Below, piece by piece: positions 4,971 through 35,442 of a stretch of DNA of 64,000 nucleotides. The notes under the pieces were generated by a model that worked only from the letters and a program-made list of their open reading frames with translations, searched no databases and was not told the origin of the DNA. Within the stretch, counting starts at the first letter, position 1; each line of letters begins with the position of its first letter. The DNA comes from Patescibacteria group bacterium (lineage in GTDB: Bacteria > Patescibacteriota > Patescibacteriia > UBA9934), in contig JBBTSM010000002.1 of the NCBI GenBank assembly GCA_038064675.1, forward strand, positions 145,852-209,851. The letters are read 5' to 3'. Made by a program: the position numbers and the translations under genes.

Positions 4971-5068
4971 GATGCTATTTTTTCACAGTCTCCATCCTTG
5001 TCAAAAAAATCCGGCGTGGTACTATACTCGCGCTCAGGAATTTATGTGAACGTTCATATTTGTGGGTA

Positions 5069-5162
5069 GTTTCGGTGCGCTAGGAGCAAATCTCGCGAGA
5101 CGTACTTCATGGTACGTTGAGCAAGTTTGCGACGCAGCAAACCGAAAATACCCCAAATAGGG
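5069..5162. repeat. Palindromic MITE-like repeat, copy A, immediately upstream of tRNA-Asp.
   Basis: It contains the core 'gagacgtacttcatggtacgttgag' with an ACGTAC-N6-GTACGT dyad. The same core is shared with copies at 29483, 28886, 37332, 43903 and 46436. Confidence 0.6.
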
Positions 5163-5174
5163 ACGTTCACTCCT

Positions 5175-5251
5175 GGGTCGGTAGCTCAACTGGTTAGAGC
5201 GCTGCCCTGTCACGGCAGAGGTTGCGGGTTCGAGTCCCGTCCGTCCCGCCA
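5175..5251 (+). tRNA. tRNA-Asp (anticodon GTC).
   Basis: Manual fold: 7-bp acceptor stem GGGTCGG/CCGTCCC, D-arm GCTC..GAGC, anticodon stem CTGCC/GGCAG with loop CTGTCAC, T-arm GCGGG TTCGAGT CCCGT, and a terminal CCA. Confidence 0.85.
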
Positions 5252-5302
5252 GAAAACGACTTCACCTTGGTGAGGTCGTTTTCTTTTTGGGTTAGCGGAA
5301 TT

Positions 5303-6424
5303 TTATGCCGTCACGAGAGTATTCACCGTCCGATTTTGCTCCCAAGAAATAACAGTGTTGCCCGCCTGTTGCCCGGGAACCTCAATTATCGTTTCGAGAA
5401 CCTGTACCGCATCGTGAAGAGAGGCTGATGTTAGGTGGGCGTATCGCTCCGTCATCGCGATCGTGGAATGACCGAGAAGCTCCTGAATGACTCGGAGAGA
5501 GATGCCCTTTATTGCGAGATGCGAAGCGAACGTGTGGCGCAACAGATGCCAGCCCACTTTCCGATCAATTCCAGCATTCCGACAAAGGCGCTTCAATTCT
5601 CGGGTTGCTCCATCGGTACTCCACGGCTTTTCGCCCAGACCGGGGAACGGGAACATGAGTCCCCTTGGTTTGCGCTCCATATAGAGCGAGTGACGCAAAT
5701 CACCAGCGAGTGGAACATGACGAATTCTGTGACTTTTTGTTGTTGTCATTTCTCGTCGAACCCACGATCGTTGGACAGCGACGGTATTTCCCTCGAAGTC
5801 GATATCACTCCACGAAAGTCCCAGAAGCTCCCCCAGCCGCAACCCCGTCCGAAGAGCGACAAAGATCATTCTATGCAGCAATGCGGGTGCTGGCGCGGCT
5901 AGGAGCCTTACAGCTTCGTGCTCTGAAAGAAAATCCACACGTCGCGAATGCGACTTCATCAGCGCAATACGAGGTATCGAGGAGATTTTCTCCCATTCGA
6001 CCGCTGATCGTAGGCAGCGACCGAGTACTGTTAGCTGATTGTTAATCGACTTGGACGATAGCCCCTCATCGCGCTTACGCGCCTTGTATCGCTCGATGTC
6101 TTCTCCGGCAATGCGATCAATCCGTATCTTTCCAAAGAAAGGCACAAGATGTCGTTGAAGGATTGATGCCTTCATTCTGCGTTCTGAGAGTTTATTGTTT
6201 GCGGCGACATAGGAATCCATCCAGCTAACTGAGAACTCCGAAAAAATCGGAGCGTCCACGGGTTTCTCTAGATGACCATCGCGCGCGAACCTCGCTCGTA
6301 ACATCGCCTCATATGCCGCAGCACCAGCGCGACTATTTTCCGGACTTCTTTTGCGGCAACGGACACACGCTATGCTGAAGTCCACCCACCATGTGTTTCG
6401 CATTTTTCGTACGCTCATACTCAT
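5303..6424 (-). CDS. int: Tyrosine-type site-specific integrase.
   Basis: The C-terminal catalytic region has 'HLLRHTFASHLA' (HxxR) and 'LGHSTIAMTERYAHL' (catalytic Tyr). The ORF is open to 6559, but the likely start is the internal 'MSMSVRKMRN' methionine. Confidence 0.8.
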   Translation of the reverse strand: MSMSVRKMRNTWWVDFSIACVRCRKRSPENSRAGAAAYEAMLRARFARDGHLEKPVDAPIFSEFSVSWMDSYVAANNKLSERRMKASILQRHLVPFFGKIRIDRIAGEDIERYKARKRDEGLSSKSINNQLTVLGRCLRSAVEWEKISSIPRIALMKSHSRRVDFLSEHEAVRLLAAPAPALLHRMIFVALRTGLRLGELLGLSWSDIDFEGNTVAVQRSWVRREMTTTKSHRIRHVPLAGDLRHSLYMERKPRGLMFPFPGLGEKPWSTDGATRELKRLCRNAGIDRKVGWHLLRHTFASHLAIKGISLRVIQELLGHSTIAMTERYAHLTSASLHDAVQVLETIIEVPGQQAGNTVISWEQNRTVNTLVTA

Positions 6425-6629
6425 TCGACTGCGCCACGAGGTGTCTTTCAATATACGTATCAACGTCTGAACGTCGAAAACGAATATAACGAGGGAACCG
6501 ATAGAACGGAATCGACTTTCGTCCGACAATGCGGTACACAGTCTGTTCCGAAATATCAAGGAATTTGGCCAAGCCTTTTACATCGAAGAATTCCTTTTGT
6601 TCAGTTTCTACCTCGTGGCTGCCTGTCAT
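6333..6629 (-). CDS. xis: Excisionase/AlpA-like helix-turn-helix DNA-binding protein.
   Basis: 'DVKGLAKFLDISEQTVYRIVGRKSIPFYRF' is an excisionase-family HTH. The gene lies directly upstream of the integrase on the same strand. Confidence 0.55.
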   Translation of the reverse strand: MTGSHEVETEQKEFFDVKGLAKFLDISEQTVYRIVGRKSIPFYRFPRYIRFRRSDVDTYIERHLVAQSNEYERTKNAKHMVGGLQHSVCPLPQKKSGK

Positions 6630-6713
6630 ATTAATTTTGAATGAGCAACGTTCCGGGCACGATTTTTTGATCGTGTATAGGTTTGCTCATCATAGTTGAT
6701 TTAATAGATATTG

Positions 6714-6917
6714 CTAAGCGGTTCGACTATAAATTTGCACACGTTCCTCGAAGGGTAATTCTGATTTCGGTATAGATGCGTAATAGCCACAGGGTTTTTT
6801 CGCGCCACACTGAAAGTAGACGTATTTCTTTCGTCGAGTGCACCGTAACGGAGATTTTCCACACCAAAGACACGTTTTATTCCAAAGTTCACGAACCGCA
6901 CTAAATTTTCTATTCAT
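6714..6917 (-). CDS. Small Cys-rich (zinc-ribbon-like) hypothetical protein, island cargo.
   Basis: A 67-aa ORF with CLWC...C...FQC...KPC spacing. An ORF in the other frame at 6701-6901 was considered less likely. Confidence 0.25.
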   Translation of the reverse strand: MNRKFSAVRELWNKTCLWCGKSPLRCTRRKKYVYFQCGAKKPCGYYASIPKSELPFEERVQIYSRTA

Positions 6918-7112
6918 ATTCAGATTACCTTCGCTCTCCCTCAGTGCACTGAGGAAGCCGACATTGGGTTGTATTAAGAGTCATGGCCATGGGGTTGAGC
7001 CCGAGCACACTGGCGAATCCAGCTTCAGGCGTGGTAGACATGGTCACGAATATGTAGAACGTATCGTCGAAAAGTTTTAAGTCGTTCCACGGATAGTCTG
7101 GACTTGGTGAAT

Positions 7113-7397
7113 CTAATTGCCGTCGTACATTCGAGCTTTGACGAACTTCATGTGTCGAGAAAATTCCTGCGGTTCAACTCGCATTCGTCGCATCCAAAAA
7201 GATTGGATTGCCGCTTCAAGCTCTTCTGATCGTTGAATGTAAAAAGCTACTCGTCCATCCTGATCTTTTTCCGTTGCCTCGATACAAAAACCGAGAAGCG
7301 AAAGTGATGAAACAAGAATCCAATCACGAGTCACGAAGGATCTATGCCCTGAATCTTCATCGTTATTCATATATGTTTTCTTAATCGAAAAGACCAT
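7113..7397 (-). CDS. Hypothetical protein, island cargo.
   Basis: A 94-aa ORF on the same strand as the integrase, AT-rich. Confidence 0.3.
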   Translation of the reverse strand: MVFSIKKTYMNNDEDSGHRSFVTRDWILVSSLSLLGFCIEATEKDQDGRVAFYIQRSEELEAAIQSFWMRRMRVEPQEFSRHMKFVKARMYDGN

Positions 7398-7488
7398 GCG
7401 CGCAGCATGATCTTTTTTCTAAAAATAGTCGTTCGGATTTAAGCCCCTGACTAAATCCAGCAGACTTTTTATGGATTATCCGATGTTT

Positions 7489-8445
7489 TTAGGCATTAAT
7501 CTCCACTAATCCACAGCTTATTTCTGAAACGATTTGTCGAATTGTTCCTGCATCTATTTTCAGCCCACCATTTTCTGGTCTTGATAGCCAAGTCTGTAAC
7601 TTAACATCAGGATTCTTTCCGGCCGTTTTAAAAACTTGATATTGGTTATAGATTCTTACATTACGCAAGAAGTTTCTATCCGCACTCATTCTTTTGCCCT
7701 CAGGTATTGATCTTCCCGCTTTCAAGCAAAGAGAAATGCTATCCCAATTCTTTTCTATATATCCCAAGAGTTCTTCTTTTTCCGTTGTGTCGTCAAAAAC
7801 AAGCTCACAGACTTTTGGGGCAAGCTCTTTGGGCTCAGTAATCGGAAGTTTAAGCGAAGGAAAAAGCTCGCTTCCCGGTAACTTTATGGGTGTCGCTGCG
7901 AGTATCTCCAAACTTTTCGCAATATCTGCTTTGAGCTCTTCTGGGGTAAAACGAAGGATTTGATTCACTTTCCTACTCGTAACGTCGGTTTTGAAACTAA
8001 TCGTATTTGAAATGTTTGGATAAGCGAATTCCTTGCTCCAGATTTCAAATTCCAGAGAAAAGGATGGGAAGCTCTTTATATCCATCGAATGCTCGAAATA
8101 TAGATGCTCGATAATTTGAGATGCTGTTTTTACAAAGTACTCCTTTTCGTTTTCGGTAACATTTTTGAAATAATTTCCAAGAACCACACGATCCAAATAT
8201 TTTCGAATAACATCGGAAACGTCCTCATCCTTCTCGCATAACGGATAGCTCAAGCCTTTCCTCATCTTTAGATAATGTGCGTCTAAATGAAATAATAGCC
8301 CTTGAAAATCGTTTCTCAGGATAAGAACTTTGAGAGAATGAGCAACACGAAACTCTTTATTTTTAAGGAGAAATTCGTAACATCGACAGCCAAAATCATC
8401 CAACTCTATTTTTGTATTCTCATTCTTCATATTCGCATTATGCAA
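7489..8445 (-). CDS. Hypothetical protein (318 aa), island cargo.
   Basis: A long AT-rich ORF with no recognisable catalytic motif. Confidence 0.45.
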   Translation of the reverse strand: MHNANMKNENTKIELDDFGCRCYEFLLKNKEFRVAHSLKVLILRNDFQGLLFHLDAHYLKMRKGLSYPLCEKDEDVSDVIRKYLDRVVLGNYFKNVTENEKEYFVKTASQIIEHLYFEHSMDIKSFPSFSLEFEIWSKEFAYPNISNTISFKTDVTSRKVNQILRFTPEELKADIAKSLEILAATPIKLPGSELFPSLKLPITEPKELAPKVCELVFDDTTEKEELLGYIEKNWDSISLCLKAGRSIPEGKRMSADRNFLRNVRIYNQYQVFKTAGKNPDVKLQTWLSRPENGGLKIDAGTIRQIVSEISCGLVEINA

Positions 8446-8473
8446 GTATGGTAAGCAATATCACCTACAATGA

Positions 8474-8786
8474 AAATGGTAGAAAAAGGTGGAAATACGA
8501 CGTTTCAAAAATGGTAGCAAATGGTCGCATTTTGGAGAGATGGAGACTAAAAAAGGTGGGAAATGGTGGGATTTTATAAATGGTGGAAAAGGGTGGAAAT
8601 TTGAGGTTTTAAAAATGTTGGAAAAACATGGAAATTCGTGGAATTAAAAGGGTCGAAAAAGGTCGAATCTCGTTAGTGAAGAATTGGCGGAAAAAGGCGG
8701 ATACTCAATAGCTAGAAAATGGCTGGAATGGTCTGGTTTTTGAGTTATGAAAAATGGTAGGCAAAGGTAGGATTTTTATTGGAAAA
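8474..8786. repeat. Array of nine degenerate ~35-bp tandem units. Each unit carries a unit-specific GG-word duplicated across an A-tract.
   Basis: Every unit has the form atGG-W-aaaaa-GG-W-aat...aaaa with a 10-bp internal period. Examples: ggtcgAAAAAggtcgAAT; ggcggAAAAAggcggATA; ggtaggCAAAggtaggATT; ggtggAAAAgggtggAAAT; ggctggAAtggtctggTTT. Confidence 0.7.
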
Positions 8787-8853
8787 TAAGGGAACTCGCC
8801 CGATCGAAGTGTCTGCTAGCCGAAGCCTTTCTTTTTCGCTATACTCCGTCTTG

Positions 8854-8988
8854 TCGAGCTTCAACCCAAAACACGGGCAATTTTTGCCTTATCGGATCGC
8901 GCGCTATAAGCGGCACCGATAAAACAACACAGCACGATCCGTCGTGTTGGGTTGAGGCTCGACACCTTCGGTGTCGCTTTTTGTTTTT
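8854..8988 (+). ncRNA. Candidate structured RNA or leader: a ~21-bp imperfect long-range stem enclosing ~67 nt, immediately followed by an intrinsic terminator.
   Basis: The left arm 'gtcgagcttcaacccaaaacacg' (8854-8875) pairs with 'cgtgttgggttgaggctcgac' (8943-8963). A terminator hairpin gacaccttcggtgtc plus a T-run follows at 8961-8988. Confidence 0.35.
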
Positions 8989-8994
8989 AAAAAT

Positions 8995-9330
8995 ATGGAA
9001 GAGTTCATCGCATATTTCTACGTCGGGATTCCAATAATCGTTATTGTCGTTATCGCTTTTCTACGGACAAAGAAAAAGATGAAAAGGATCAAAACGATCC
9101 AATCGATTCCGGAGAAGGATCGAACAACATCTGAAAGTAAATGGTTAAAATGGATTCGCTTTCTTTTGGAAATTATCATTCCGGCATACATAATCATCGT
9201 TCAAGGCTTTTTTGCCTATTTCGGTTATGGAAGCGGGCATCTACCTTGGTCAATTCTAGCTGTCTTTGTTGGTATAGCCCTTCACTTCGCCATACGAAGC
9301 TTCTTTCGAAATAAATTCGAAAACTCCTAA
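8995..9330 (+). CDS. Small membrane protein (first gene of the four-gene island operon).
   Basis: The ATG at 8995 is chosen because the 8971 start would lie inside the terminator stem. The product has about three transmembrane segments and a basic loop. Confidence 0.45.
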   Translation: MEEFIAYFYVGIPIIVIVVIAFLRTKKKMKRIKTIQSIPEKDRTTSESKWLKWIRFLLEIIIPAYIIIVQGFFAYFGYGSGHLPWSILAVFVGIALHFAIRSFFRNKFENS

Positions 9331-9342
9331 TAGATCGCCCCT

Positions 9343-9780
9343 ATGGAGAATCAAAAGGCGATCAAAGGAATCTCCCAAGAAAATAGGAAACTCATTTCCG
9401 GAACGTTATTCTTGGTTCTTTTTCTTTGGGTTTTTAACGGAATCTACGGAACGCTTATCTCCTTTGGATTATCGGCTGTTTTTTATTGGCTGCTCGATAG
9501 GATTGGAAAAGAATATGAATTCGATTCAGCGACAAACGAAAGGCTGAGAAGGGTCGTCTGGGGCATGATCGCGGGTGCACTTATCGTTGGATCGATACTG
9601 GCATTCAACTCCAAAAACCATACAGAGTGCGATCAACAGGTGCGAACAAGGGACGGTTACGAATGTGTTGGAGATTATGTTGCCGTTAAAGGGGGAGATG
9701 TTGTTGCGGGGGTATTATTAGCTATATTCGGTATTGCAGCCGCAAAAGTCTCGATAACGAAGGCTGACAGCGAGGCGTAA
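9343..9780 (+). CDS. Small membrane protein (second gene of the operon).
   Basis: Predicted to have three to four transmembrane segments, with a 12-nt gap to the upstream gene. Confidence 0.45.
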   Translation: MENQKAIKGISQENRKLISGTLFLVLFLWVFNGIYGTLISFGLSAVFYWLLDRIGKEYEFDSATNERLRRVVWGMIAGALIVGSILAFNSKNHTECDQQVRTRDGYECVGDYVAVKGGDVVAGVLLAIFGIAAAKVSITKADSEA

Positions 9781-9795
9781 CCCAATCTTCGGCCT

Positions 9796-10575
9796 ATGCT
9801 CAGATTTCTTGTTCCTGAACGATTTGAAGGCTTGAACGAGCAGGGTCTGACGAATGACCAAGCTATAGAGGCGCTCGTGCGAAAATATATTCAAGGCTAT
9901 AAACACGAATGTCCCAATACATCCTCGATTGCGGACGAAGATGATCGAAGTGCTACCGAAACTCTTCAAATCGGCGGGAAAATGGACACCCTATACGCAC
10001 TTAGTCGTTTGTATTTTAAACATTTAGATGAATTGGTGGATTCAGAAGCTGCCAGTCGATTAAAATCAGAAATCGCACAAGGCATCGGGGAAGAAAACCT
10101 ATTCCGAGATAAAGAGAGCTCCCCCGAAGAAGACCAGCAGAAAATGATCCGTAATTTACTAGATTACGTAGAATATACGGGGGAGGATGACCGAGTGATA
10201 AGCGTCTTAGCTACTCTAAAAAGAGACGTTTATAGAAAATCTACCAAATACGTCTTGGGCGATTTTGGTGTGCCGAACCCACTCTTGACCGAGGAGGCGG
10301 AGAAAACCGTGTCTGAAGGCTCTACGCGCTTCCTGAACGCGTTTAGAAGTCTGTATCCCGACCAATTTACCGGTAATCTCGAATTAGAAAACGACGGGTT
10401 GTTTTTCGTTGGCGAAATAGTCTCTCGCACACGGGTAATCTCCCAAGGAATGTACCCAGAATATGCTGACAACATTAGTCAAAGTGTTATTTTTGAAATC
10501 CTTCTTTCCCTCGATTCGATTCTTGGATCAAGAACCGCTTGGGATCAGGAATTCTGCGCTTGGATTTGTCATTAA
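9796..10575 (+). CDS. Hypothetical acidic cytoplasmic protein (third gene of the operon).
   Basis: A 259-aa Glu/Asp-rich product with no TM segments. The gap to the next gene is 47 nt. Confidence 0.45.
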   Translation: MLRFLVPERFEGLNEQGLTNDQAIEALVRKYIQGYKHECPNTSSIADEDDRSATETLQIGGKMDTLYALSRLYFKHLDELVDSEAASRLKSEIAQGIGEENLFRDKESSPEEDQQKMIRNLLDYVEYTGEDDRVISVLATLKRDVYRKSTKYVLGDFGVPNPLLTEEAEKTVSEGSTRFLNAFRSLYPDQFTGNLELENDGLFFVGEIVSRTRVISQGMYPEYADNISQSVIFEILLSLDSILGSRTAWDQEFCAWICH

Positions 10576-10622
10576 CTAAGGAGTAATATCAAGTTAACAC
10601 TTTAATAGCTACAATTAACGCT

Positions 10623-12620
10623 ATGGAATCAATTCAGATTAAAGGTAATGGCGTTAAATCGGTGCTTCGCAAGTTCAATAGAGCCCAATCCTTCGCTGAA
10701 TATGTCTGGAACGGTTTTGATGCTGGAGCAAAGAGCGTTAACATCAACTTTAAGACTGACAACATTTTTGATTCAGTTAACGAGATCAGCATATCTGATG
10801 ATGGAAGCGGCATCCCGTACCAGTTGCTAGAGGGCAAATTCAAGCCATTCTTTGAATCTGAAAAGGCGAGATTGAATGATCCGCAACATCGATCGCTGCC
10901 ACACGGAAAGAACGGCATTGGTCGCCTAACCTTCTACACTTTTGCACGCGAAGCTACATGGGAAACGATTTACTCTAAAAACGATAAGAAATTTTCTTAC
11001 ACAATTAAAATCACACAAAAAAGCCTAGAGAATTACGAAGGTAGTCACGACGAACAGAAGGAGGTCGCCACAGAAAAAACAGGAACAACGGTGGTATTTC
11101 GTTCGATTGAAGGGCTTACTCCTAGCATCATTAGAGATGAGATTGTAGATTTTTTAAAAACTGAATTCTGTTGGTTTTTAGAGTCGAAAAAGACCGCTGG
11201 CTTTTCCTTAAAAATTAACGGAGTTGATTTGGATTATGACGATATCGTCAATAACAAGGAGCGCATAGATTTGGTGCATCCTGATTCGGGAACAAAATTC
11301 TCACTAAACTTTATTCAATGGACTCGACATTTATCGAAAGAGTATTCCCGATGGTATCTGATTGATTCAAATGGAATGGAAAAATGGAAAAACGCGACTA
11401 GATTGAATAACAAAGGTGATAACTTTTTTCATAGCGTTTTTGTTTCGAGTAGCTATTTTGATGACTTTATATACGATCCGGATAAGACAGAAGAAGATAA
11501 GACGCTTTTCGGGCATTCAAAGGGTGATCCGGAGTTTAAATACTTGTTGGAGGAATTGAACAGATTCTTGTACAAAAAACGAAAACCGTTTTTAAAAAAT
11601 TCAGCAATCAAACTTATAAAGAATTATGAAACCGAGGGAATTATCCCAAAATTCAAAGAGCCATGGGAATTACCAAGAAAAGATGAGTTAGAGACGCTTA
11701 TCCGTGGACTGTATGAAATACAGCCTCGTCTCTTTTCGAGCTCATCCATAGAGCAAAAGAGGACATTTGTCCTTCTTCTAAATGCACTACTTGACTCAGA
11801 AGATCGAGAGCAGCTTTTAGATATCATTAATAACGTTCTCGAACTGAGTAGAGAAGATAGAACGGAATTAGTTGAGTTATTGAAAGTTACAAAGCTTTCT
11901 GGGATTATTAGCACAATTAAATTAATAAAAGAACGTTATAAAACGATCGATCAAGTTAAGGAGCTAGTCTTTAACCCCACTTTAAAAGCAAATGAAAGAG
12001 ATCATTTGCAGAAAATAATTGATGCACACTATTGGATCTTTGGTGAGAAATACAATCTAGTTTCATCTACAGAAATAAAGTTCCAAAAAGTACTTGAAAG
12101 CTATCTACATTTATTAGGAATCGAAAATAAGGCAGAAGTCATAACACATGTTGATAGGAATAAAGAGATGGATATATTTCTGTGCAGACAAAATATCTCA
12201 GTCGATACAATCGAGAATGTAGTAGTTGAGCTGAAGAGTCCAACCGTACCGCTCGGAGAAAATGAGCTATCACAGGTTAAAAGATACATGAGCGTTATCC
12301 TCAGCGCTGCCCAATTCAACGCAAATAACATGCAGTGGGATTTCATTTTGATTGGAAATAAATTCGATACCAGTGGTTTTATACAAAACGAGATTAAAAA
12401 TGCGGAAAGTCACGGCGAAAAGAGTAAGGGATTAGCATTCAAAACGGATCGTTATCGTATATATGTTCGCACGTGGAGTGAGGTATTAAACGACGTAGGA
12501 ATTCGACACGACTTCTTGCAAAAGAGGCTTGAACTTGATCGAAATAAACTGACTAAAGATTACGTTTCAGCAGATGATGTCGTCATAGACGCCGGAAAGA
12601 ATCTTGAGACGGTTGCGTAA
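10623..12620 (+). CDS. GHKL-family (MORC/MutL-like Bergerat fold) ATPase fused to a C-terminal PD-(D/E)xK nuclease-like domain. Predicted defence effector.
   Basis: N-box 'EYVWNGFDAGAK', G1 box 'ISISDDGSGIP' and G2 box 'HGKNGIGRL' mark the ATPase. The C-terminus 'DIFLCRQNISVDTIENVVVELKSP' fits a D...ExK nuclease motif. Confidence 0.6.
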   Translation: MESIQIKGNGVKSVLRKFNRAQSFAEYVWNGFDAGAKSVNINFKTDNIFDSVNEISISDDGSGIPYQLLEGKFKPFFESEKARLNDPQHRSLPHGKNGIGRLTFYTFAREATWETIYSKNDKKFSYTIKITQKSLENYEGSHDEQKEVATEKTGTTVVFRSIEGLTPSIIRDEIVDFLKTEFCWFLESKKTAGFSLKINGVDLDYDDIVNNKERIDLVHPDSGTKFSLNFIQWTRHLSKEYSRWYLIDSNGMEKWKNATRLNNKGDNFFHSVFVSSSYFDDFIYDPDKTEEDKTLFGHSKGDPEFKYLLEELNRFLYKKRKPFLKNSAIKLIKNYETEGIIPKFKEPWELPRKDELETLIRGLYEIQPRLFSSSSIEQKRTFVLLLNALLDSEDREQLLDIINNVLELSREDRTELVELLKVTKLSGIISTIKLIKERYKTIDQVKELVFNPTLKANERDHLQKIIDAHYWIFGEKYNLVSSTEIKFQKVLESYLHLLGIENKAEVITHVDRNKEMDIFLCRQNISVDTIENVVVELKSPTVPLGENELSQVKRYMSVILSAAQFNANNMQWDFILIGNKFDTSGFIQNEIKNAESHGEKSKGLAFKTDRYRIYVRTWSEVLNDVGIRHDFLQKRLELDRNKLTKDYVSADDVVIDAGKNLETVA

Positions 12621-12819
12621 TCCCTTTTTAGGTTTAAAAAATGTGTCTTTCTTAACAAAACCTACTATTTACTTCTCGATGTCCACAGTTTAAGAGAATG
12701 TCGGTGTATACTATGGGTACCATCAAATGTTGACAAAATGGCTAGATTTGAGACAATATTCCGTTACAAATCGAAAACCCCGATCGACTTGAGAATCAAC
12801 GGGGCTTCGATAATGAGAG

Positions 12820-12981
12820 TTACGCCTGCAAAATGCCCTCAATCTCACGGTTGATGGGCTTTTTGAATATGTGAAGATAGTAATAGATTTCTCCATCAAC
12901 CATCGTCTTCAACACTTTGCCCGGAGGATAATCCTCAAGCTCGGTGTCCCCCCATATTCGAAGAGGGTTCGGTACAATCAT
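12820..12981 (-). CDS. Possible 53-aa small ORF (MIVPNPLRIWGDTELEDYPPGKVLKTMVDGEIYYYLHIFKKPINREIEGILQA), found by manual translation.
   Basis: It falls below the ORF-track length cutoff. A hairpin (ccccgatcgacttgagaatcaacgggg, 12776-12806) lies downstream of its stop. Confidence 0.2.
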   Translation of the reverse strand: MIVPNPLRIWGDTELEDYPPGKVLKTMVDGEIYYYLHIFKKPINREIEGILQA

Positions 12982-13421
12982 AGTGATTCCCGTTATACCC
13001 TCAGGAGCCTGAGTGCGCGCTGGAGCTTATGCGCCCCCTCTGCCAGAGATGGGGGCAAAAGGGAAGCGTAAACAAAACACACGCTCAGGGCGAAACGAGA
13101 AGCTTTCCCTTTCGGGAAGAAAATCCAGTTCCATCCTAGGCGTGCGTGTTTTGAGTACGTAGTCCATTATGGTTGTGGCCTTTCCACTTCATGTTTCGTT
13201 CATATCGATTGCTCGATACGAAGATAGAGTAGCACATTCGCCCGCCAAAATACAGCGATCACCTCCCGGACGGTGTTGCCCGCCCGTTGCCTATAAGGTG
13301 ATGGGATCTGTATTTTTGTGAGTACTCGTGATGGCTAGTGAGAAACGAGAAATTAGCCTAGCTATCGCCAACTTCGTACCTTTTCGGCCATTTTTTCTTT
13401 TTTCCTAATTTTGCGTCATCA

Positions 13422-13446
13422 GGTTCGAGTCCCGTCCGTCCCGCCA
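13422..13446. repeat. attR-like 25-bp direct repeat identical to the tRNA-Asp 3' end.
   Basis: 'ggttcgagtcccgtccgtcccgcca' is identical to 5227-5251. It is followed by the terminator hairpin atccttcagc-tttt-gctgagggat. Confidence 0.7.
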
Positions 13447-13605
13447 AAAAATCCTTCAGCTTTTGCTGAGGGATTTTTTATTATCTTGCCAAGAGCCTGA
13501 GATTAAAACTTTTTTGTTTATTTAAAACGAACATATGGCCATAGAACGACTTGCGCAAAGTCTGCCATCGTCGCAGAATGGCCCCATGGTGAGTACTGAG
13601 AATAT

Positions 13606-14616
13606 ATGAAATACATTGATGTTAAGGAGTTGAAAGAGATCGTGCAAAGTGGGCATATGAACCTACTGGTTGGTTCCGGCTGTTCGCGCGACTATCTCTC
13701 GACATTGAGCGACATTGAAGTTCGCATGAATGCCCCGGAAACCGCCGAGCAAGCGCAAAAGGATTACTGTGAGCTAATATTGAAGTCTAAGGCTGTCCTC
13801 AGCCCGAGCCGGGAGCGCAGTGCAACGGAGAATGGCCGCCTAACTAAGACGAGGGAAAATTACAACGCGTTTCTAGGCCTACTCGCCGAAATTATCACGA
13901 AACGGTCGCTGCATATCGTCAACAAGCAGGTAAATATCTTTACAACAAATTTTGACGTGTTCATGGAAGAAACGTGCGAGCGACTCGGTATTCCTTATAA
14001 TGACGGATTTTCTGGTCAGATCCACCGCGTGTTCCGTACCGCAAATTTTAACAGGATTCAGAAATATAAGAGCTTACAGTTTGACAACACTTCGGACGTA
14101 CCAATTTTTAATATCATCAAGCTTCATGGGTCCACTTCTTGGCGAGTAAGGGGAGAGGAGATCGTCTACTCGGACGGCGCACATATCGACGACGATCTTG
14201 CCGAAAAGGACAGAGAGGATTTTTTGGATGGCTACAAAAAGCAGATCGCGGTCATCAACCCCAACGCCGAGAAACATTTTGAGACAGTACTCGACACGAC
14301 GTACGCGTCGTTGCTTCGAAAGTTCACCCTAGAGTTAGAAAAAGAGAACAGCGTACTTATCGTCATCGGTTTCTCGCTTACCGATGCCCATATTAGGCAT
14401 CTTCTCTACGGGGTCATGCAGTCCAATCCCACCCTCGTGGTTATTTACTACTCGCATTCTCCCTACAACGAAATGAGTGACAAGCTCGATGAAAAGAAAC
14501 ACCAGAACCTCTACGTGATTTCGCCTGAGCCGAGCTTCACCCTCGATAAGATCACCGGGCACCTTAGAAAAGCGTGTCTCGGAGACACGGATCCAGCCTA
14601 TGGAATCGAAGAATAA
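13606..14616 (+). CDS. SIR2-family NAD-dependent protein of the SIR2-HerA anti-phage system.
   Basis: The motifs 'NLLVGSGCS', 'IFTTNFD' and 'IIKLHGSTSW' form a SIR2-like Rossmann signature. The gene overlaps the HerA gene by 17 nt. Confidence 0.75.
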   Translation: MKYIDVKELKEIVQSGHMNLLVGSGCSRDYLSTLSDIEVRMNAPETAEQAQKDYCELILKSKAVLSPSRERSATENGRLTKTRENYNAFLGLLAEIITKRSLHIVNKQVNIFTTNFDVFMEETCERLGIPYNDGFSGQIHRVFRTANFNRIQKYKSLQFDNTSDVPIFNIIKLHGSTSWRVRGEEIVYSDGAHIDDDLAEKDREDFLDGYKKQIAVINPNAEKHFETVLDTTYASLLRKFTLELEKENSVLIVIGFSLTDAHIRHLLYGVMQSNPTLVVIYYSHSPYNEMSDKLDEKKHQNLYVISPEPSFTLDKITGHLRKACLGDTDPAYGIEE

Positions 14617-16486
14617 GTATCCGCTTGACGACCAGATCACGTATGATTCGGTGTTCACCATTGGCAACGTCGAAGGCGTAAAAGGAAAGGAGATCGTCGT
14701 GAGGGTGAAGAAGGATAAGAACCTTCCCCATCTCTTTTTTCATGGGAGAACTATCAAGAACGTGTCGGTCGGTCTTTCCAATTACGTAAAGATCATGAAG
14801 GGCTTTACCGAGATTATCTGCAAGGTCGAGGGAGAATATCTCGAAGAAGATCGGTCGAATGCTCGTAAGCCATACACGAACGAAAGGGCGAAGATCAACA
14901 GGTTCCTTAACGTTTCTGTGTTCGGATTTTACGATCACGATCAGAAGTTCCAGCATGGCATAAAGGAGATGCCTCTCGTTGGGAGCGAATGCAGGCTACT
15001 TTCCAGGGAGGAGTTTGAGACGTTACACCGACTTGCAAATGCTAACGAGCTATCTGTGCGACTCGGATCACTCGTCGATGAGGAAGCACAGTCTATCTCC
15101 ATCTCGGTAAAAAATCTGTTCGCTGGTCATATCGGTATCTTTGGGAACACCGGCTCAGGAAAGTCCAACACACTGGCGAAAATGTACTCGGAGCTCTTTC
15201 ATCTCTCAAAACTAAACGGTGCATTTAAGCGAAAGTCCAAGTTTATTTTTATCGACTTCAATGGGGAGTATTCGAGGGACGGCGCGGATCAAATTTTAAC
15301 TGAAGACAAGGCCGTCTTTCGATTACAAACAAGGGGTGCCTCTGGTTCGAAGTACCCAATATCAAAAGACGAGGTAGAAAAGTTGGAACTGCTCTCAATC
15401 CTGCTGGACGCCACGGAAAAGACGCAGCAACCATTCCTTCAGCGTGCCCTTGAACGATTGTGGTTCGACACTGACAATGATTACTTCGTCAAAGAAGTCG
15501 AAAGTATCACTCGGAAAATCCGAGAAATTTTGCTGAACAAGGAATCTCGCTTCGGCGTCTCATTTCTTAACAAGTTCGTCAAGGATTTCTCACAGCTTGG
15601 CTTTACAATCGTCAATACCTCGAAAAATCTGGACGATATAAAATACCATTCAAATAACCATTCGTTTTATTTTGTTGATGGCACTGACACGACATTATAC
15701 TCGGATAGGGATATCGAAAAATTCTTCGGGGAAGAAGGCTACTTTGACATATCCGCCCCAAGCAACATGGCGGTTCTGCGCAGGATTCAGTTTAAAATTT
15801 TCGACAATTATTACTTCGAGCTAATGAACGGGTACGTCAATGAGGAGCACATCGGTCCTTTAATGGGTCGCGTGAAGAAGCGGTTTAACATGCTGGATAA
15901 AGTCTTCGAAATAGACGGGCACACGGCCGATCACGCGAACATTCACGTCGTCGATTTAAAGAACGTAAATCTCGAGATTAAAAAGGTTATTCCGCTCCTC
16001 ATCTGTAAGACGCGTTATGACGAACAGAAGGAGCGGCGCAATGAGGACCAGGAAAACTCGCTCCATATCATTATCGACGAGGCGCATAATATTTTGTCGG
16101 AAAATTCAACTCGCGAAGCAGAGTCCTGGAAGGATTACCGACTGGAGACGTTCGAAGAAATCATCAAGGAGGGTAGAAAGTTTGGTGTGTTTCTCACTAT
16201 CGCGAGTCAGAGGCCGTCTGATATCTCCCCCACGATTATTTCTCAGTTGCACAATTATTTCATTCACAGGCTCATGAATGAGAATGACCTAAAGGCGATC
16301 AACAGGGCCGTCAGTTACCTAGATAAACTTTCGTTTGATTCGATCTCCAACCTTTCGATTGGCTGTTGCTTCATTGCGGGACAGATGACGCAATTTCCTC
16401 TTTCGATAAAAGTGGAACTTCTTGAACGCATTAGGAGGCCACAGAGCGAGACAGTCAACCTAGATACACTATGGCGAATGGAATAG
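14600..16486 (+). CDS. HerA-like (FtsK/HerA superfamily) ATPase partner of the SIR2 protein.
   Basis: Walker A 'GIFGNTGSGKSNT', Walker B 'LHIIIDEAHNI', and 'FLTIASQRPSDIS' (typical of HerA). Confidence 0.75.
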   Translation: MESKNKYPLDDQITYDSVFTIGNVEGVKGKEIVVRVKKDKNLPHLFFHGRTIKNVSVGLSNYVKIMKGFTEIICKVEGEYLEEDRSNARKPYTNERAKINRFLNVSVFGFYDHDQKFQHGIKEMPLVGSECRLLSREEFETLHRLANANELSVRLGSLVDEEAQSISISVKNLFAGHIGIFGNTGSGKSNTLAKMYSELFHLSKLNGAFKRKSKFIFIDFNGEYSRDGADQILTEDKAVFRLQTRGASGSKYPISKDEVEKLELLSILLDATEKTQQPFLQRALERLWFDTDNDYFVKEVESITRKIREILLNKESRFGVSFLNKFVKDFSQLGFTIVNTSKNLDDIKYHSNNHSFYFVDGTDTTLYSDRDIEKFFGEEGYFDISAPSNMAVLRRIQFKIFDNYYFELMNGYVNEEHIGPLMGRVKKRFNMLDKVFEIDGHTADHANIHVVDLKNVNLEIKKVIPLLICKTRYDEQKERRNEDQENSLHIIIDEAHNILSENSTREAESWKDYRLETFEEIIKEGRKFGVFLTIASQRPSDISPTIISQLHNYFIHRLMNENDLKAINRAVSYLDKLSFDSISNLSIGCCFIAGQMTQFPLSIKVELLERIRRPQSETVNLDTLWRME

Positions 16487-16590
16487 CCTAAATTGATGCC
16501 GAGTTACAAACTCTGCACCGTGTGACGTACCCGACAAGTCAACACTATAAGACAAAGAATATCCGCGTAAAACTATCCTGATAGAACCAT

Positions 16591-16630
16591 AAAATGCATT
16601 CCTACTCGTTCCATCACGTCCCGCCAAAAA
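16591..16630. repeat. 37-40-bp direct repeat (copy 1) ending in an att-like 'cgtcccgcca' followed by a terminator hairpin. It is part of a larger palindrome.
   Basis: 'aaaatgcattcctactcgttccatcacgtcccgccaaaaa' is about 90% identical to the repeat at 17381-17417. It is followed by the hairpin actccgcta-atttt-agcggagga and then by the inverted segment gcggacgggatggtgggaac. Confidence 0.5.
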
Positions 16631-16749
16631 TACTCCGCTAATTTTAGCGGAGGATTTTTATATGCGGACGGGATGGTGGGAACATAATGAAAGAGATCAT
16701 TAGTTATAAGGATGGTGGTTTCGTTTGATACATGAGAAAATATCTTTGT

Positions 16750-17367
16750 ATGCAGACCATCATTTTTGATTTTGACGGCACGATTGCGAATACCTTGGAA
16801 GCAACAGTTGAAGTTTATAATGAACTCGCTCCTCGTTTTCGGTGCAAACCCGTTAGCTCGGATGATCTTGAACATCTTCGAAATGGTCGGCCGAAAGAAT
16901 TGATGGCCGAATTCGGCATTAAAGCATGGAAACTTCCTTTTATTGTTTTCGCTGTCCGTAAAGGACTCGGGGATCGCAAGGTTCTGCCTCAAATTGGAAT
17001 AATTGATACAATTCGGAAACTAAAAAACCAGGGAGCTCTTCTCGGGATTCTTACCTCAAATTCAAAAGAAAATGTCGAGCGTTTCTTAAAGGAACACGAT
17101 CTTCAAAATAGTTTTGCGTTTATCAATTCCTATCGTCGTATTTTCGGTAAACACAAGGCCTTAATAAGCATCATGAAACAACGCGGGTTGAACCAATCTG
17201 AGGTTACTTATGTGGGAGACGAAGTCCGTGATATTGAAGCGGCGGAAAAAGCGGGTGTTAAAAGCGTCGGAGTAGTATGGGGCTTCCAGACACAGGGCGC
17301 CATCAAAGACGCGGATCCGGATGTCGTTGCCATAAAGCCGTTAGATCTTCTTGAACTTACGAAATAG
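16750..17367 (+). CDS. HAD-superfamily hydrolase (phosphoglycolate-phosphatase-like).
   Basis: Motif I 'IIFDFDGTI' is followed by 'LTSNSK' and a C-terminal 'GDEVRDIEAAEKAG'. The start is taken at MQTIIFDFDGT. Confidence 0.7.
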   Translation: MQTIIFDFDGTIANTLEATVEVYNELAPRFRCKPVSSDDLEHLRNGRPKELMAEFGIKAWKLPFIVFAVRKGLGDRKVLPQIGIIDTIRKLKNQGALLGILTSNSKENVERFLKEHDLQNSFAFINSYRRIFGKHKALISIMKQRGLNQSEVTYVGDEVRDIEAAEKAGVKSVGVVWGFQTQGAIKDADPDVVAIKPLDLLELTK

Positions 17368-17380
17368 GCGTTGCGTGCAT

Positions 17381-17417
17381 AAAATGCATTCCTACCCGTT
17401 CCACCACGTCCCGCTAT
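17381..17417. repeat. Direct repeat (copy 2) flanking the HAD cassette.
   Basis: 'aaaatgcattcctacccgttccaccacgtcccgctatgaaaaaa' is followed by the hairpin atctcagc-tcac-gctgaggtt. Confidence 0.5.
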
Positions 17418-28483: not shown

Positions 28484-28882
28484 GGGCTTGACGGGTTTCG
28501 ATACTCTTCGGATCCTCACAAATCACGCCGGAAGGGCACCATATTCCGTAATCCCGTGGTGCAACGAGATACTTGCAAACGCATTCTCAAAGGTGAAGAG
28601 CATGATCGCTTCGGCGTTCAGCGTTCCTTCATTCTCATTGGTTACCGCCTAAGGGCCGCAACCCATCCACTTCGCAATGCCTCATAGCGGATGTTGGGTG
28701 CAATATTATGAGACTATAGGCGTTCTCTTGTTCGCTCAGAGAACGTAACCCGTTGCAGCGAAATCGTGTCGATGATTCTTGTTCCGTCTTATCATCGCCC
28801 CGTATCCGACGGAACTGCGCGTGGAACAAATTTGTTTGGTGAGGTGGGGTAGACGAGGGTTCAACTCCCTCCAGGTCCACCA
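28484..28882 (+). ncRNA. ssrA: tmRNA (SsrA).
   Basis: The 5' end 'GGGCTTGACGGGTTTCGAT' pairs with the 3' 'CAGGTCC-A-CCA'. The 3' tRNA-like T-arm 'GAGGGTTCAACTCCCTC' ends in CCA at 28882. A -10-like 'tagtat' lies just upstream. Confidence 0.75.
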
Positions 28883-33636: not shown

Positions 33637-34013
33637 TTGAACCGACCGAGCGTAATGAGCGATTCAACGGGTGGCGCCGAGGGAGGTCCCCGTACGGAGC
33701 GCAACGAGCACAGAGTGCTGATGATAGTTACCGCAAACGTTCATGTGCGAGCTGAGCACCGTAACGGGGTCCGAGGCGACAGGACCCGTTGATGAGCGAG
33801 AGAAGCGATTGTGAAGAGCGGTTATCCCCGTTCATTGTTGATAGATTCTTGACGCTTGCGTCTGCTTTTGGTTCCCTTTGCACACGAAAACCCCTTGAGG
33901 GGACCCTACGGAACGGTTGTGACGCCTCCTCCTCGTTGCAACCCGTCACCATAGGGTCTCCTAAACGGGTTTTTTGTTTTGGCGCATTTCCTTGTTTATT
34001 GTCGCCTAATATT

Positions 34014-34042
34014 TGACTTTTTGGCCATTTTTTGGTATGATA
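34014..34042 (+). promoter_or_regulatory. Consensus-like sigma70 promoter (TTGACT-N17-TATGAT) that would give a ~215-nt 5' UTR for the gene at 34259.
   Basis: 'ttgactttttggccattttttggtatgat'. Confidence 0.4.
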
Positions 34043-34258
34043 GTCTGTCCTTGAATAAAGGATTCCATAGGGAAATCGGCAGGGAATTGAGGTGAGTAGA
34101 GCTTTCCCATTTGAGATCAAATAGGAAGTTCTAGCGCTCTCCAGTAGTTTGGTGTCCTGGGTGTTCCCTCCAACACTCGGTCGACGCCAAACTTCTGGAG
34201 CGCGCGAAACGCCCAATTACGGCATTCGCCGCGCAGTCTCTGACCAAATCACCCTGGA

Positions 34259-35197: not shown

Positions 35198-35442
35198 TGA
35201 TCCTTCGGCCCTAGTAAGTCTCATGTCGAAGTGAGACCGACGGGCCAAGGCACGGTGACCCACGCACGGTTCGGCTGGGAGGGAAGAGGTGAAAACCTCG
35301 ACTCTCCCGGCCGTTCGCGACACTTATTGGAGTGAAAGGTTAAGATGGTTAAACGGTTAAGACGGTTATTCTGAGTAGGAATAACCGGGTTAACCGAGAT
35401 GGTAATCCATCGATTTATCGCCTTAACCGTTCCCTTCAATCA

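What the first reader, a model, noticed from the sequence alone, without database searches (positions are those of the whole stretch)
8995..12620. Four-gene island operon ending in a GHKL (MORC-like) ATPase-nuclease fusion: candidate undescribed defence system
- Layout: four co-oriented, tightly spaced genes (gaps 12, 15 and 47 nt) inside an integrase-bearing tRNA island. The same island also carries SIR2-HerA.
  - Genes 1 and 2 encode small 3-4-TM membrane proteins.
  - Gene 3 encodes an acidic 259-aa protein.
  - Gene 4 encodes a 665-aa protein.
- Gene 4 has a complete Bergerat-fold ATPase: N-box ExxxNxxDA, G1 DDGSGI and G2 GKNGIG.
- Its C-terminus has a D...(V)ELK PD-(D/E)xK-like nuclease motif.
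- Prokaryotic MORC/MutL-like GHKL ATPases fused to nucleases have been predicted as restriction-like components.
- I do not recognise a combination with two small membrane proteins and an acidic partner as any named system.
- The membrane proteins could act as abortive-infection effectors or as sensors.
Basis: partly seen in the sequence, partly recalled or inferred. Interest (0 to 1): 0.8.

Follow-up and report, generated by a model that had tools for sequence, protein, structure and literature searches.

The report
GHKL-nuclease defence gene on integrative element
The four genes are real, but only the last one looks like an immune gene: a stand-alone ATPase-nuclease of a type predicted in 2008, with a distant relative shown in 2025 to block phages. 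The three small genes before it belong to the mobile element that carries it.

Summary
The four-gene-system reading fails.

- **Gene 4 travels alone.** It has over 870 homologues (38-56% identity) across bacterial phyla and archaea. In 80 genomic loci, plus the three closest relatives, none has a detectable homologue of genes 1-3. Its closest relatives sit inside Type I or Type III R-M operons; other neighbours vary.
- **Genes 1-3 travel without gene 4.** They are near-orphans. The same triad (TM, TM, gene-3-like) recurs in a few other mobile elements that have no GHKL gene. In one (L084) it follows the same iteron-like repeats and structured leader.
- **Island borders.** A 25-nt repeat of the tRNA-Asp 3' end (5227-5251 / 13422-13446) bounds an 8.2-kb integrative element. 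Genes 1-4 lie inside it and SIR2-HerA lies outside.
- **What gene 4 is.** It has a GHKL domain, an S5/transducer domain and a conserved E-D-ExK nuclease, which is the paraMORC3 architecture (Iyer 2008). This architecture was validated as single-gene defence in V. cholerae VcSduA (2025).
- **Relation to VcSduA.** It is only a remote sister of that family (about 12% identity, hhalign probability 90%), and its link to Shedu's DUF4263 domain is sub-threshold.

Verdict: a likely single-gene defence nuclease carried as cargo, a new member of a known kind.

The parts
5175..5251 (+). tRNA-Asp (GTC); its last 25 nt (5227-5251) form attL of the integrative element
   Evidence: ARAGORN, Rfam tRNA 67.6 bits, direct-repeat family D2, sequence
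5303..6304 (-). tyrosine integrase of the element (333 aa as called publicly; the mechanical ORF extends to 6559)
   Evidence: Pfam Phage_integrase 1.1e-30; public gene call
6333..6629 (-). HTH_17 (excisionase-like) protein, element backbone
   Evidence: precomputed Pfam HTH_17; 34% identical to the L084 HTH_17 protein, E=5e-7
7113..7397 (-). DUF5659-like protein, element backbone
   Evidence: precomputed Pfam hit, weak; homologous to the L085 DUF5659 protein, E=5e-8
7489..8445 (-). 313/318-aa protein of unknown function, element backbone
   Evidence: ORF; no Pfam, PADLOC or NCBIfam hit
8472..8776 (.). iteron-like array: units made of two tandem GGTNGNA heptamers separated by an A-run. A similar array lies upstream of the triad in L084
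   Evidence: the repeat finder family D1, 6 copies; sequence; L084 2545-2775; blastn 70-83%
8845..8976 (+). structured leader ending in a terminator-like hairpin (8960-8976 plus T-run), 19 nt before the g1 ATG. A counterpart with a different closing-stem sequence exists in L084
   Evidence: MFE -60.3 kcal/mol, z=-6.46; L084 z=-5.84; terminator scan; alignment; no Rfam family
8995..9330 (+). gene 1: 111-aa basic membrane protein (~3 TM). Backbone triad member; its N-terminus is homologous to the first ORF of the L084 triad
   Evidence: tblastn 50% over 32 aa, E=4.5e-7; blastp 39% over 56 aa
9343..9780 (+). gene 2: 145-aa membrane protein (~3 TM). Backbone triad member; an orphan apart from a partial homologue upstream of the g3 homologue in L098
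   Evidence: only a self hit among 5.8 billion proteins; L098 fragment
9796..10575 (+). gene 3: 259-aa acidic soluble protein (pI 4.57). Backbone triad member; rare family defined by an N-terminal ~100-aa domain
   Evidence: contexts
10623..12620 (+). gene 4: 665-aa GHKL ATPase (~1-170) + S5/transducer-like middle domain (~170-290) + helical linker (~300-470) + PD-(D/E)xK nuclease (~475-620). The likely defence gene
12699..12806 (+). conserved non-coding segment 3' of gene 4 (promoter-like TTGAC..GACAAT, then a CCCCG..CGGGG hairpin). About 80% identical to L084 706-599, where it also lies 3' of a cargo-like gene
   Evidence: blastn E=1e-19; alignment; promoter scan
13422..13446 (+). attR: exact 25-nt copy of the tRNA-Asp 3' end, followed by a terminator hairpin (13446-13479)
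13606..16486 (+). SIR2 (13606-14616) and HerA (14600-16486): a known defence pair, adjacent to but outside the element. Context only
   Evidence: PADLOC SIR2 1.4e-48, HerA 6.1e-175

Best explanation
**The element.** Window 5252-13446 is an 8.2-kb integrative element inserted in the 3' end of tRNA-Asp of a Patescibacteria genome.

**Its backbone.** This consists of a tyrosine integrase, an HTH_17 excisionase-like gene, a DUF5659 gene, a 318-aa gene, an iteron-like repeat array, a structured leader and the gene 1-2-3 triad (two small membrane proteins and an acidic protein). The function of the triad is unknown. It belongs to the element, not to gene 4.

**Gene 4.** It is separately acquired cargo: a self-contained ATPase-nuclease of the paraMORC3 type (GHKL + S5/transducer + RecB-like E-D-ExK nuclease).

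**Most likely mechanism (inferred from VcSduA and other GHKL enzymes, not shown here).**
- The protein dimerises through its GHKL domains.
- ATP binding and hydrolysis, with E26 as catalytic base, close a clamp formed by the middle domain around DNA.
- This licenses the C-terminal nuclease (D517, E536, K538) to cut invading phage or plasmid DNA directly, without partner proteins.

**Expression.** Its position behind the triad probably means it is transcribed by read-through from the triad's promoter or leader, or from a promoter inside the end of gene 3.
For: **Element borders.** A 25-nt exact att repeat, the integrase next to the tRNA and low GC3 inside the element.

**Gene 4 domains.**
- HATPase_c_3 E=2.7e-15.
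- All Bergerat motifs are invariant in 24 homologues.
- The model matches TRAP1/Hsp90, MutL/MLH1, Topo II/GyrB ATPase regions and MORC3 over 310-420 columns, probability 1.0. That span is GHKL plus transducer.
- E484-D517-E536xK538-Q551xxxY are invariant.

**Gene 4 has no fixed partner.**
- No g1-g3 homologue in 80 loci.
- No neighbour family in more than 9 of 71 loci.
- The closest relatives are embedded in HsdR-X-HsdM-HsdS and Mod-X-Res operons.
- A plasmid homologue lies beside Drt2, Dcm and an LlaMI-type REase.

**The triad is independent of gene 4.**
- L084 has iterons, leader, TM, TM and a g3 homologue with no GHKL gene.
- L100 has TM, TM and a g3-domain protein, with a serine recombinase and a Rep gene.
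- In L098 the ORF that follows g3 is not gene-4-like.

**Function by analogy.**
- VcSduA has the same architecture. It protects as a single gene, and E27A and K557A abolish defence (PMC12137116).
- hhalign of the g4 family against VcSduA-family sequences gives probability 90%, E=1.5e-6 over GHKL plus middle domain.
- Iyer 2008 notes that nuclease-bearing paraMORC3 proteins occur as stand-alone genes.
Against: - No experiment exists for this family. Defence is inferred from architecture, context and a relative with about 12% identity.
- BLASTP finds no collinear similarity to VcSduA, and the VcSduA HMM search of the authors did not pick up members of this family.
- The link to Shedu's DUF4263 domain is sub-threshold.
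- The tight spacing, with no predicted terminator between genes 3 and 4, allows co-transcription. A local functional link with the triad cannot be excluded.
- The two closest relatives are wired into R-M operons with gaps of 1-15 nt. That could mean the family normally works with R-M subunits, which this element lacks.
- No empty tRNA-Asp site was found to prove that the element is mobile.
Confidence: 0.75

Rival explanations
1. One reading: genes 1-4 form one four-component defence system. The two membrane proteins act as sensors or abortive-infection effectors, and the acidic protein acts as a partner or regulator of the GHKL nuclease.
For: - The genes are co-oriented with gaps of 12, 15 and 47 nt.
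- There is no predicted terminator between them, and a single structured leader lies upstream.
- g1 gives a weak PADLOC hit to a '4TM effector' model, E=5e-4 over 42 residues.
Against: - No g1-g3 homologue lies next to any of 80 gene-4 homologues or the 3 closest relatives.
- The triad occurs in L084, L100 and L098 without a GHKL gene.
- g2 and g3 are near-orphans, with 0-5 relatives among billions of proteins, while gene 4 has over 870.
- GC differs: g4 0.377 against g2/g3 0.44.
- The 4TM hit covers one hydrophobic stretch and is below any meaningful threshold.
Confidence: 0.06
2. Gene 4 is not autonomous. It is an accessory ATP-driven nuclease or looping subunit of Type I/III restriction-modification systems, as Iyer et al. 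proposed for paraMORCs. Here it is an orphan copy that works with an unlinked R-M system, or is inactive.
For: - The two closest relatives (56% identity) sit between HsdR and HsdM/HsdS, and between Mod and Res, with gaps of 1-15 nt.
- 9-10 of 77 loci show HsdR-X-HsdS.
- Iyer 2008 made this proposal.
Against: - Most loci (over 80%) have no adjacent R-M gene.
- Type I R-M operons are known landing sites for unrelated defence genes (general knowledge, not tested here).
- The architecturally equivalent VcSduA works alone.
- All catalytic residues are intact here.
- The element carries no methyltransferase.
Confidence: 0.15
3. Gene 4 serves the mobile element rather than the host. For example, it may be a nuclease used in competition between elements or plasmids, or in the element's own DNA processing.
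For: - It lies inside an att-bounded element next to replication-like features (iterons).
- Homologues occur on plasmids and beside recombinases.
Against: - The related backbone elements L084 and L100 lack it, so it is dispensable for the element.
- The neighbours of its homologues are mostly defence or R-M genes, not replication genes.
- Competition between elements and defence are not mutually exclusive.
Confidence: 0.04

Closest known systems
paraMORC3 family (Iyer, Abhiman & Aravind 2008, PMC2292703)
   Same: - N-terminal GHKL domain with intact ATP motifs, then an S5 domain, then a conserved C-terminal RecB-like nuclease with E-D-ExK.
- Sporadic distribution across bacteria and archaea.
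- Found in R-M neighbourhoods or as stand-alone genes without conserved neighbours.
- Lacks the MORC-specific S5 motif.
   Different: No feature tested here differs. The original member list is not held, so identity of the sequence family with Iyer's paraMORC3 could not be checked directly. paraMORC3 was a computational prediction with no assigned mechanism.
VcSduA of Vibrio cholerae WASA lineage (GHKL-Shedu, 'type I-D'; PMC12137116)
   Same: - Same three-part architecture and similar size.
- The motif-I Glu (E27 there, E26 here) and the nuclease ExK Lys (K557 there, K538 here) lie in equivalent motifs.
- Single gene in a defence-rich mobile region.
- Remote homology over GHKL plus middle domain: hhalign probability 90%, E=1.5e-6, with a shared end-of-S5 motif.
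   Different: - About 12% identity and no collinear BLASTP match.
- Members of this family are not among the 543 VcSduA hits, although at least one host genome was in the searched set.
- The VcSduA nuclease is reported as DUF4263. Here Pfam favours HSDR_N_2 (18/18 members), and SduA_C is sub-threshold.
- Many members here are embedded in Type I/III R-M operons.
- This family is untested experimentally.
Canonical Shedu (SduA, DUF4263 nuclease; B. cereus / E. coli structures 8TI8, 8PS4)
   Same: - Single-protein PD-(D/E)xK defence nuclease with a regulatory N-terminal region.
- PADLOC SduA models give weak hits in 15 of 24 family members.
   Different: - SduA is not the best structural match; N.BspD6I, FokI, NucS and Cap4 score higher.
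- Pfam SduA_C scores 12.5 bits against a cut-off of 27.
- Family profiles do not reach the solved SduA sequences.
- The N-terminal region is a GHKL ATPase rather than a Whirly-like sensor.
- The oligomeric state is unknown.
BbrUII/HgiDII-type Type II restriction enzymes with an N-terminal GHKL domain
   Same: The N-terminal ~185 residues match NCBIfam NF050001 (E=3e-14) and PADLOC REase_II models. These are also GHKL-containing restriction nucleases.
   Different: - The match is to the GHKL part only (52.5 bits against a cut-off of 550).
- The C-terminal halves are unrelated.
- There is no cognate methyltransferase in the element.
MORC / MutL / Hsp90 / Topo II ATPase modules
   Same: Bergerat fold plus transducer (S5-like) domain. 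Foldseek probability is 1.0 to TRAP1, MLH1, MutL LN40, Topo II and MORC3.
   Different: - The MORC S5 signature is absent (0 of 24).
- There is no MutL C-terminal endonuclease or dimerisation domain.
- Sequence identity is 12-16%.

Membership tests
paraMORC3 (Iyer 2008) | N-terminal GHKL domain with conserved ATP-binding motifs | tested here: met
   HATPase_c_3 E=2.7e-15. E26xxxN30xxD33A, D59xGxG63 and G95xxGxG100 are invariant in 24 homologues.
paraMORC3 (Iyer 2008) | S5/transducer domain directly after the GHKL domain | tested here: met
   The AF2 model (pLDDT 79) aligns over 310-420 columns with two-domain ATPase fragments of MutL LN40, MLH1, Topo II, GyrB43 and MORC3, probability 1.0.
paraMORC3 (Iyer 2008) | Conserved C-terminal globular domain of the restriction-endonuclease fold with an E-D-ExK motif (RecB-like) | tested here: met
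paraMORC3 (Iyer 2008) | Lacks the MORC-specific S5 motif GhXhhpXXRhl | tested here: met
   A regex for the motif finds it in 0 of 24 family members.
paraMORC3 (Iyer 2008) | Sporadic, laterally mobile distribution; R-M neighbourhoods or stand-alone without conserved neighbours | tested here: met
   Homologues occur in Patescibacteria, Bacteroidota, Chloroflexota, Bacillota, Cyanobacteria, Pseudomonadota and archaea. R-M genes flank about 15% of loci, and no family is present in more than 9 of 71.
paraMORC3 (Iyer 2008) | Direct sequence relationship to the proteins originally listed as paraMORC3 | not testable with these tools
   The identifiers are only in a figure and an additional file that are not held.
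VcSduA family (Adams et al. 2025) | Recognisable full-length sequence homology to VcSduA / detection by the VcSduA profile | tested here: not met
   BLASTP against VcSduA residues 1-399 gives no collinear match. Records holding my family's members are absent from the 543-hit table. Only remote profile-profile similarity was found: probability 90%, 12% identity. The C-terminal part of VcSduA is not held.
VcSduA family (Adams et al. 2025) | Catalytic Glu of GHKL motif I and Lys of the nuclease ExK motif present | tested here: met
   E26 and K538 are present and invariant. The equivalents in VcSduA are E27 and K557.
VcSduA family (Adams et al. 2025) | Acts as a single gene and protects against phage | not testable with these tools
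   The absence of any conserved partner is consistent with this. Protection needs an experiment.
Shedu (DUF4263 nuclease family; Gu et al. 2023) | C-terminal nuclease domain is DUF4263 / SduA_C (retrievable from B. cereus SduA by iterative search) | tested here: inconclusive
   - Pfam SduA_C gives E=0.16 and 12.5 bits against a cut-off of 27 for this protein. It hits 3 of 18 homologues, best E=0.0022.
- PADLOC SduA models hit 15 of 24 members, best E=1.2e-4.
- Family profiles find no solved SduA sequence at E<=10.
MORC proper | GhXhhpXXRhl motif in the S5 domain | tested here: not met
   Found in 0 of 24 members.
BbrUII/HgiDII Type II restriction enzymes (NF050001) | Full-length match above the curated cut-off | tested here: not met
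   52.5 bits against a cut-off of 550. The match covers only residues 23-207.
Proposed four-gene system (genes 1-4) | Components co-occur in other genomes | tested here: not met
   tblastn with g1-g3 against 80 gene-4 loci finds only the same contig. The closest relatives lack the triad. Triad-bearing elements lack gene 4.

The most novel reading that the evidence does not exclude
In this Patescibacteria lineage the co-transcribed membrane-membrane-acidic triad has been recruited to control or localise the GHKL nuclease. That would give a lineage-specific four-component system that synteny cannot reveal, because both the triad and the combination are so rare.

A milder and more likely novelty is also open. 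The iteron array, structured leader RNA and triad may together form an undescribed replication, maintenance or exclusion module of tRNA-Asp-targeting mobile elements of candidate-phyla-radiation bacteria. In addition, gene 4's large family is an untested sister lineage of VcSduA that current defence finders miss.
Probability: 0.05. Interest if true: 0.6.

Novelty: new member of a known kind. Interest (0 to 1): 0.3.

Why it matters
- **An unannotated defence-like family.** Gene 4 adds a large family to the GHKL-nuclease class of single-gene immune proteins. It has over 870 detected homologues and more than 500 genomic loci, all annotated only as 'ATP-binding protein'. PADLOC v2 does not assign it to any system, and the VcSduA profile does not detect it. 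Only one member of this class, a distant one, has been tested.
- **A testable link to R-M systems.** The family's frequent insertion inside Type I and Type III R-M operons makes it possible to ask whether such ATPase-nucleases act alone or cooperate with R-M enzymes.
- **A caution for genome scanning.** Tight co-oriented spacing on a mobile element does not make a system. Here a cargo gene sits behind a backbone module.
- **A rare view of a Patescibacteria mobile element.** The backbone itself (iteron-like repeats, a structured leader with compensatory stem changes, and a membrane/acidic triad) is a small glimpse of mobile-element biology in these bacteria.

Tried and rejected
- **Family searches for g1-g3.** Pfam, NCBIfam and PADLOC gave nothing usable. 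The '4TM effector', BatA and DUF hits are single hydrophobic stretches.
- **Rfam.** A scan of 5000-17000 at E<=1 found only the tRNA. Nothing matched the leader or the 800-bp region after gene 4.
- **PDB by sequence.** The full protein and two C-terminal profiles gave no informative hit.
- **Bridging to Shedu.** I tried plasmid homologues that match only the C-terminal domain. The Curtobacterium 245-aa stand-alone nuclease and the Streptomyces proteins also lack a DUF4263 hit.
- **Assuming gene 4 is a VcSduA orthologue.** The near-identical residue numbering suggested this. I rejected it after recovering the VcSduA sequence.
- **Empty tRNA-Asp/SIR2 junction.** None is on record.
- **More triad loci.** The viral-contig scan found none, and the metagenome scan found three short ones.

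Full report
**1. Observation**

The four + strand ORFs exist as described: g1 8995-9330 (111 aa), g2 9343-9780 (145 aa), g3 9796-10575 (259 aa) and g4 10623-12620 (665 aa). Public gene calls on the same Patescibacteria MAG contig (GCA_964357295.1) agree. The gaps are 12, 15 and 47 nt. By Kyte-Doolittle, g1 and g2 each have about three hydrophobic segments. g3 has pI 4.57 and no TM segment.

Gene 4 carries E26YVWNGFDA, D59DGSG and G95KNGIG and matches Pfam HATPase_c_3 at 2.7e-15. In an alignment of 24 homologues from many phyla, these residues are invariant. So are E484, D517, E536-x-K538 and Q551xxxY in the C-terminal part.

One contextual statement is wrong. The last 25 nt of tRNA-Asp (5227-5251) recur exactly at 13422-13446, each followed by a terminator-like hairpin. 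This repeat lies between gene 4 and SIR2 (13606). Genes 1-4 are therefore inside an 8.2-kb att-bounded element, together with the integrase, an HTH_17 gene, a DUF5659 gene and a 318-aa gene. SIR2-HerA (PADLOC 1.4e-48 and 6.1e-175) is adjacent but outside. Codon-position GC agrees: 0.38-0.45 inside the element and 0.57-0.59 for SIR2/HerA, which is host-like.

**2. Is it a four-gene system?**

Gene 4 has more than 870 homologues of 655-695 aa at 38-56% identity. They occur in Patescibacteria, Bacteroidota, Chloroflexota, Bacillota, Cyanobacteria, Pseudomonadota, Deinococcota and archaea. I fetched 80 genomic loci.

- tblastn with g1, g2 and g3 at E<=1 found nothing except the three copies of the same contig.
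- Clustering the four neighbours on either side of each gene-4 homologue found no family in more than 9 loci.
- Scanning 120 immediate neighbours of 71 loci gave the same limit. Recurrent neighbours are HsdS (9), HsdR (5-6), HsdM (5), Type III Mod (2), AAA_21/AAA_15, PIN, SLFN, Fic and recombinases.
- The three closest relatives lack the triad. P0002 (56%) lies between HsdR and HsdM-HsdS with gaps of 1-5 nt. P0003 (56%) lies between a Type III Mod and Res. P0010 (52%) has other neighbours.
- A Psychrobacter plasmid homologue lies beside Drt2, Dcm and an LlaMI-type enzyme.

Genes 2 and 3, conversely, are near-orphans.
- g2 hits only itself among 5.8 billion proteins.
- g3 hits itself and one 60% homologue. 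An exhaustive HMMER search of 1.8 billion representatives adds four remote relatives that share an N-terminal ~100-aa domain.

The contexts of those relatives are mobile elements without any GHKL nuclease.
- **L084:** a 146-aa TM protein whose N-terminus matches g1, a 130-aa multi-TM protein, a full-length g3 homologue (E=5e-21), then unrelated genes, an HTH_17 gene and a large serine recombinase.
- **L100:** 90-aa TM, 69-aa TM and a g3-domain protein, with a serine recombinase and a Rep gene.
- **L098:** a g2-like C-terminus, then the 60% g3 homologue, then an ORF whose start does not resemble gene 4.
- **L085-88:** a g3-domain protein among small TM proteins, in an element with a DUF5659 gene.

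L084 also shares four other features with the window element:
- the iteron-like repeat array;
- a structured leader with a different closing-stem sequence;
- a ~108-nt conserved non-coding segment;
- the tRNA-Asp target.

The triad is therefore part of a rare mobile-element backbone, and gene 4 is cargo.

**3. What gene 4 is**

The AlphaFold2 model (pLDDT 79) matches TRAP1/Hsp90, MLH1/MutL, Topo II/GyrB ATPase fragments and MORC3 at probability 1.0 over 310-420 columns. That span is a GHKL domain plus a transducer/S5 domain.

A separate model of residues 440-665 (pLDDT 78) matches restriction-endonuclease-fold proteins.
- Foldseek: Cap4 nuclease domain (probability 0.94), MspJI, Avs3, McrC and FokI.

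Pfam HSDR_N_2 hits 18 of 18 C-terminal domains, and SduA_C hits 3 of 18, all below threshold. PADLOC SduA models give weak hits in 15 of 24 members. The MORC-specific S5 motif is absent in all 24.

**4. Comparison with known families**

Iyer et al. 2008 defined paraMORC3 as GHKL + S5 + a C-terminal RecB-like E-D-ExK nuclease. They described it as sporadic in bacteria and archaea and associated with R-M systems. They also noted that nuclease-bearing members occur as stand-alone genes without conserved neighbourhoods. Every one of these features was tested here and met. Only a direct comparison with their sequence list was impossible.

Gu et al. 2023 noted Shedu homologues with HATPase_c_3 plus an Hsp90/MORC-like middle domain among type 1D.

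Adams et al. 2025 showed that V. cholerae VcSduA, with the same architecture, protects E. coli and V. cholerae as a single gene. E27A and K557A abolish protection, and the growth curves suggest direct, non-abortive restriction.

I recovered the first ~400 residues of VcSduA from the preprint's supplement.
- BLASTP shows no collinear similarity to gene 4.
- Records holding my family's members are not among the 543 VcSduA hits. This includes the Paraflavitalea soli chromosome, which was in their searched set.
- Profile-profile comparison gives probability 90%, E=1.5e-6 over 210 columns, from the G1 box to the end of the middle domain, at 12% identity. The two families share the motif FFHSVFVSSSYFDD / FVYTCYVSSKFLDD.

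Gene 4's family is therefore a remote sister of the VcSduA family, not a member. Its assignment to Shedu (DUF4263) is inconclusive.

**5. Mechanism**

The following are inferred from VcSduA and from GHKL enzymes in general:
- The protein dimerises through its ATPase domains.
- ATP binding and hydrolysis (E26) close the middle-domain clamp on DNA.
- This licenses the C-terminal nuclease (D517/E536/K538) to cut foreign DNA.

What distinguishes self from non-self is unknown. The element carries no methyltransferase.

Because the closest relatives are wired into R-M operons, cooperation with R-M enzymes is a serious rival (0.15). The four-gene system is unlikely (0.06).

**6. Verdict**

Gene 4 is a new member of a known kind. 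Interest is modest (0.3). It comes from two points:
- The family is large and untested, and current defence finders do not recognise it.
- The Patescibacteria element has an unusual backbone.

Noticed in passing
window 8472-8776; L084 ~2545-2775: Iteron-like array. Each unit holds two tandem heptamers (GGTNGNA, an A-run, GGTNGNA) whose variable bases match within a unit but differ between units. Units are 27-105 bp apart. The same kind of array precedes the triad in the unrelated element L084. It could be a replication origin or a protein-binding array of a Patescibacteria mobile element.
   Followed up: partly
window 8845-8976; L084 2810-2990: Strongly structured leader (z -6.5 and -5.8). It has a shared TTCG-TATACT box, a 17-19-bp closing stem whose sequence differs between the two elements (compensatory), a GATAAAACAA motif, and a terminator-like hairpin just before the gene 1 ATG. 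There is no Rfam match. It may be an attenuator or a small RNA. Only two examples are known, so covariation cannot be assessed.
   Followed up: partly
window 12699-12806; L084 706-599 (minus strand): A ~108-nt non-coding segment, about 80% identical between the two elements. It has a promoter-like TTGAC..17..GACAAT and a CCCCG..CGGGG hairpin with a variable loop. In both elements it lies 60-80 nt downstream of a cargo-like gene, in the same relative orientation. It may be a small RNA gene or a cassette boundary.
   Followed up: partly
L084 9456-9484 (minus strand): The L084 contig ends in the same tRNA-Asp 3' sequence as the window's att site, next to a large serine recombinase. Two related backbones with different recombinase types therefore appear to use the same tRNA-Asp target.
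   Followed up: partly
L084 768-2483 (minus strand): In L084, the genes beside the iterons are a 346-aa protein with a weak HATPase_c (histidine-kinase-like) C-terminus and a 223-aa protein. They sit in a cargo-like position in that element. No function is assigned.
   Followed up: no
window 12820-12981 (minus strand): A 53-aa ORF between gene 4 and attR is called as a gene in a public assembly (L101). It has no family hit.
   Followed up: no
window 16588-16624 and 17378-17414: A 37-nt direct repeat (95% identical) flanks the low-GC HAD hydrolase gene (16732-17367, GC3 0.39). It may mark another small insertion downstream of SIR2-HerA.
   Followed up: no
window 28484-28882: A tmRNA gene with an unusually long predicted tag peptide, ANAFSKVKSMIASAFSVPSFSLVTA.
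   Followed up: no
window ~34000-40000: A block of markedly higher GC (0.58-0.66, against about 0.51 for the rest of the window). It was not examined.
   Followed up: no
L092 2998-3735 (Curtobacterium plasmid NZ_CP126255.1): A stand-alone 245-aa protein homologous to gene 4's C-terminal nuclease domain only (32% identity, E=6e-22). This shows that the nuclease module also exists without the GHKL part.
   Followed up: partly
L028-L031, about 9008-9838: In four Flavobacteriia/Cytophagales loci, the gene-4 homologue is followed 27-30 nt downstream by a 276-278-aa protein; three of the four cluster as one conserved family. It may be a clade-specific partner and was not characterised.
   Followed up: no
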